A report generated by a model with database tools continues below. The report deals with a stretch of DNA of 63,642 bases from an uncultured Candidatus Saccharibacteria bacterium (lineage in GTDB: Bacteria > Patescibacteriota > UBA1384 > JAMDBS01 > DAOVQR01): assembly GCA_964481135.1 (NCBI GenBank), contig CAYZSW010000006.1, positions 1 to 63,642 on the forward strand; not shown here. The letters run 5' to 3'.

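What the first reader, a model, noticed from the sequence alone, without database searches (positions are those of the whole stretch)
11857..12045. A complete tRNA-Thr(CGU) nested inside the D-arm of a second tRNA-Thr(CGU)-like gene, clamped by GC-rich complementary arms
On the minus strand, 12045->12023 reads GCCCACT-TA-GCTT-TAATGGTA-GA, and 11909->11857 reads GC-A-ATTCC-TTCGTAA-GGAAG-AGGTT-ATTGG-TTCAAAT-CCAAT-AGTGGGC-T-CCA. Joined, these make a 76-nt cloverleaf with a perfect 7-bp acceptor stem, a restored D stem (GCTT/GAGC), a canonical T loop and anticodon CGT. The 113 nt between the two pieces have three parts. The first is a 21-nt arm, CCTGCCCGCCAGTCGCTTAGC. The second is an intact 75-nt tRNA-Thr(CGU) (11927..12001). 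The third is a 17-nt arm, GGCGCTTGGCAGACGGG. The arms can pair (CTGCC/GGCAG, CCAG/TTGG, CGC/GCG), so the inner tRNA sits in the loop of a GC-rich hairpin planted in the outer D stem. The inner and outer genes share only about two thirds of their positions, so this is not a simple recent duplication. I see three readings. (a) It is an intron-like or split-tRNA arrangement. RNase P/Z release of the inner tRNA would leave two outer halves held together by the GC clamp, which recalls archaeal split tRNAs but is not something I know from bacteria. (b) A palindromic element carrying a replacement tRNA-Thr inserted into and killed the resident gene. T instead of the near-invariant A at outer position 14 argues for decay. 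(c) It is an assembly chimera. The arm sequence resembles the CCTGTCYGCC / GGCRGACRGG core of the GC islands at 33.2 and 56.9 kb and the junction of the tRNA-Asp repeats.
Basis: partly seen in the sequence, partly recalled or inferred. Interest (0 to 1): 0.9.

Follow-up and report, generated by a model that had tools for sequence, protein, structure and literature searches.

The report, continued
Full report
**1. The observation**

The order is as follows:
- E1, GCCCACTTAGCTTTAATGGTAGA (12045..12023)
- a 21-nt arm, CCTGCCCGCCAGTCGCTTAGC
- a 75-nt tRNA (12001..11927)
- a 17-nt arm, GGCGCTTGGCAGACGGG
- E2, GCAATTCC...AGTGGGCTCCA (11909..11857)

ARAGORN and Rfam call only the inner tRNA-Thr(CGU), at 71 bits. 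When E1 and E2 are joined in silico, ARAGORN calls a 76-nt tRNA-Thr(cgt) with a 7/7 acceptor stem and a restored D stem. The insert lies between tRNA positions 23 and 24. E2 alone reaches 26.5 bits against the Rfam tRNA model, below the gathering score of 29. Inner and outer are 67% identical. The window is about 29% G+C, so the arms stand out.

**2. Not an artefact**

The proteins encoded by the two flanking genes were looked up by exact sequence. The complete 218-nt intergenic stretch, or the part that reaches a contig end, is 100% identical in assemblies from six samples made with three pipelines: ENA ERZ27252304 and ERZ27252301, Logan SRR10872584 and SRR30684747, JGI 3300033170 and 3300033176. 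All of these are the same strain, so they say nothing about evolution.

**3. Relatives: one conserved locus, many alleles**

The downstream GT2-like 519-aa protein is well conserved. I used it to fetch 79 loci from species-representative genomes labelled Berkelbacteria, Saccharibacteria or Patescibacteria, plus further contigs. A single uninterrupted tRNA-Thr(CGU) lies a few hundred bases upstream of this gene in 44 of the 79 loci. Three loci are decisive.

(i) L092 (JGI 3300027914; GT2 73% identical) has the order DUF192, tRNA, 99-aa gene, GT2, as in the window. Its tRNA is the uninterrupted outer type: GCCCACTTAGCTTTAACGGTAGAGCAATTCC...GATAGTGGGCTCCA. It is 72/76 identical to the joined outer gene and scores 59.9 bits against Rfam tRNA. 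This is the empty site. It also carries the T at position 14, so that base is a lineage trait and not decay. Of the four differences, one is in the D loop and three are in the T stem. There, G49·U65 becomes A49-U65, and C51-G63 becomes U51-A63, a compensatory pair. The outer gene therefore evolved as a functional tRNA after the two lineages split.

(ii) L087 (GT2 57% identical) has, at the same syntenic place, a stand-alone tRNA-Thr(CGU) that is 71/75 identical to the inner tRNA. Its flanks are AT-rich and it has no arms.

(iii) The closest host, L009/L013 (GT2 81%), has yet another allele. It is only 68% identical to the outer gene and 71% to the inner. tRNA identity does not track host relatedness.

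**4. The same cassette elsewhere**

A metagenome scan with the anticodon-arm 21-mer of the outer gene returned L113. This is a 43% G+C contig from a different Patescibacteria lineage with a different gene context. After tRNA-Gly(CCC) it reads as follows:
- GCCGAAGTAGCTCAGTTGGTA, a 5' tRNA-Thr fragment ending in the D loop
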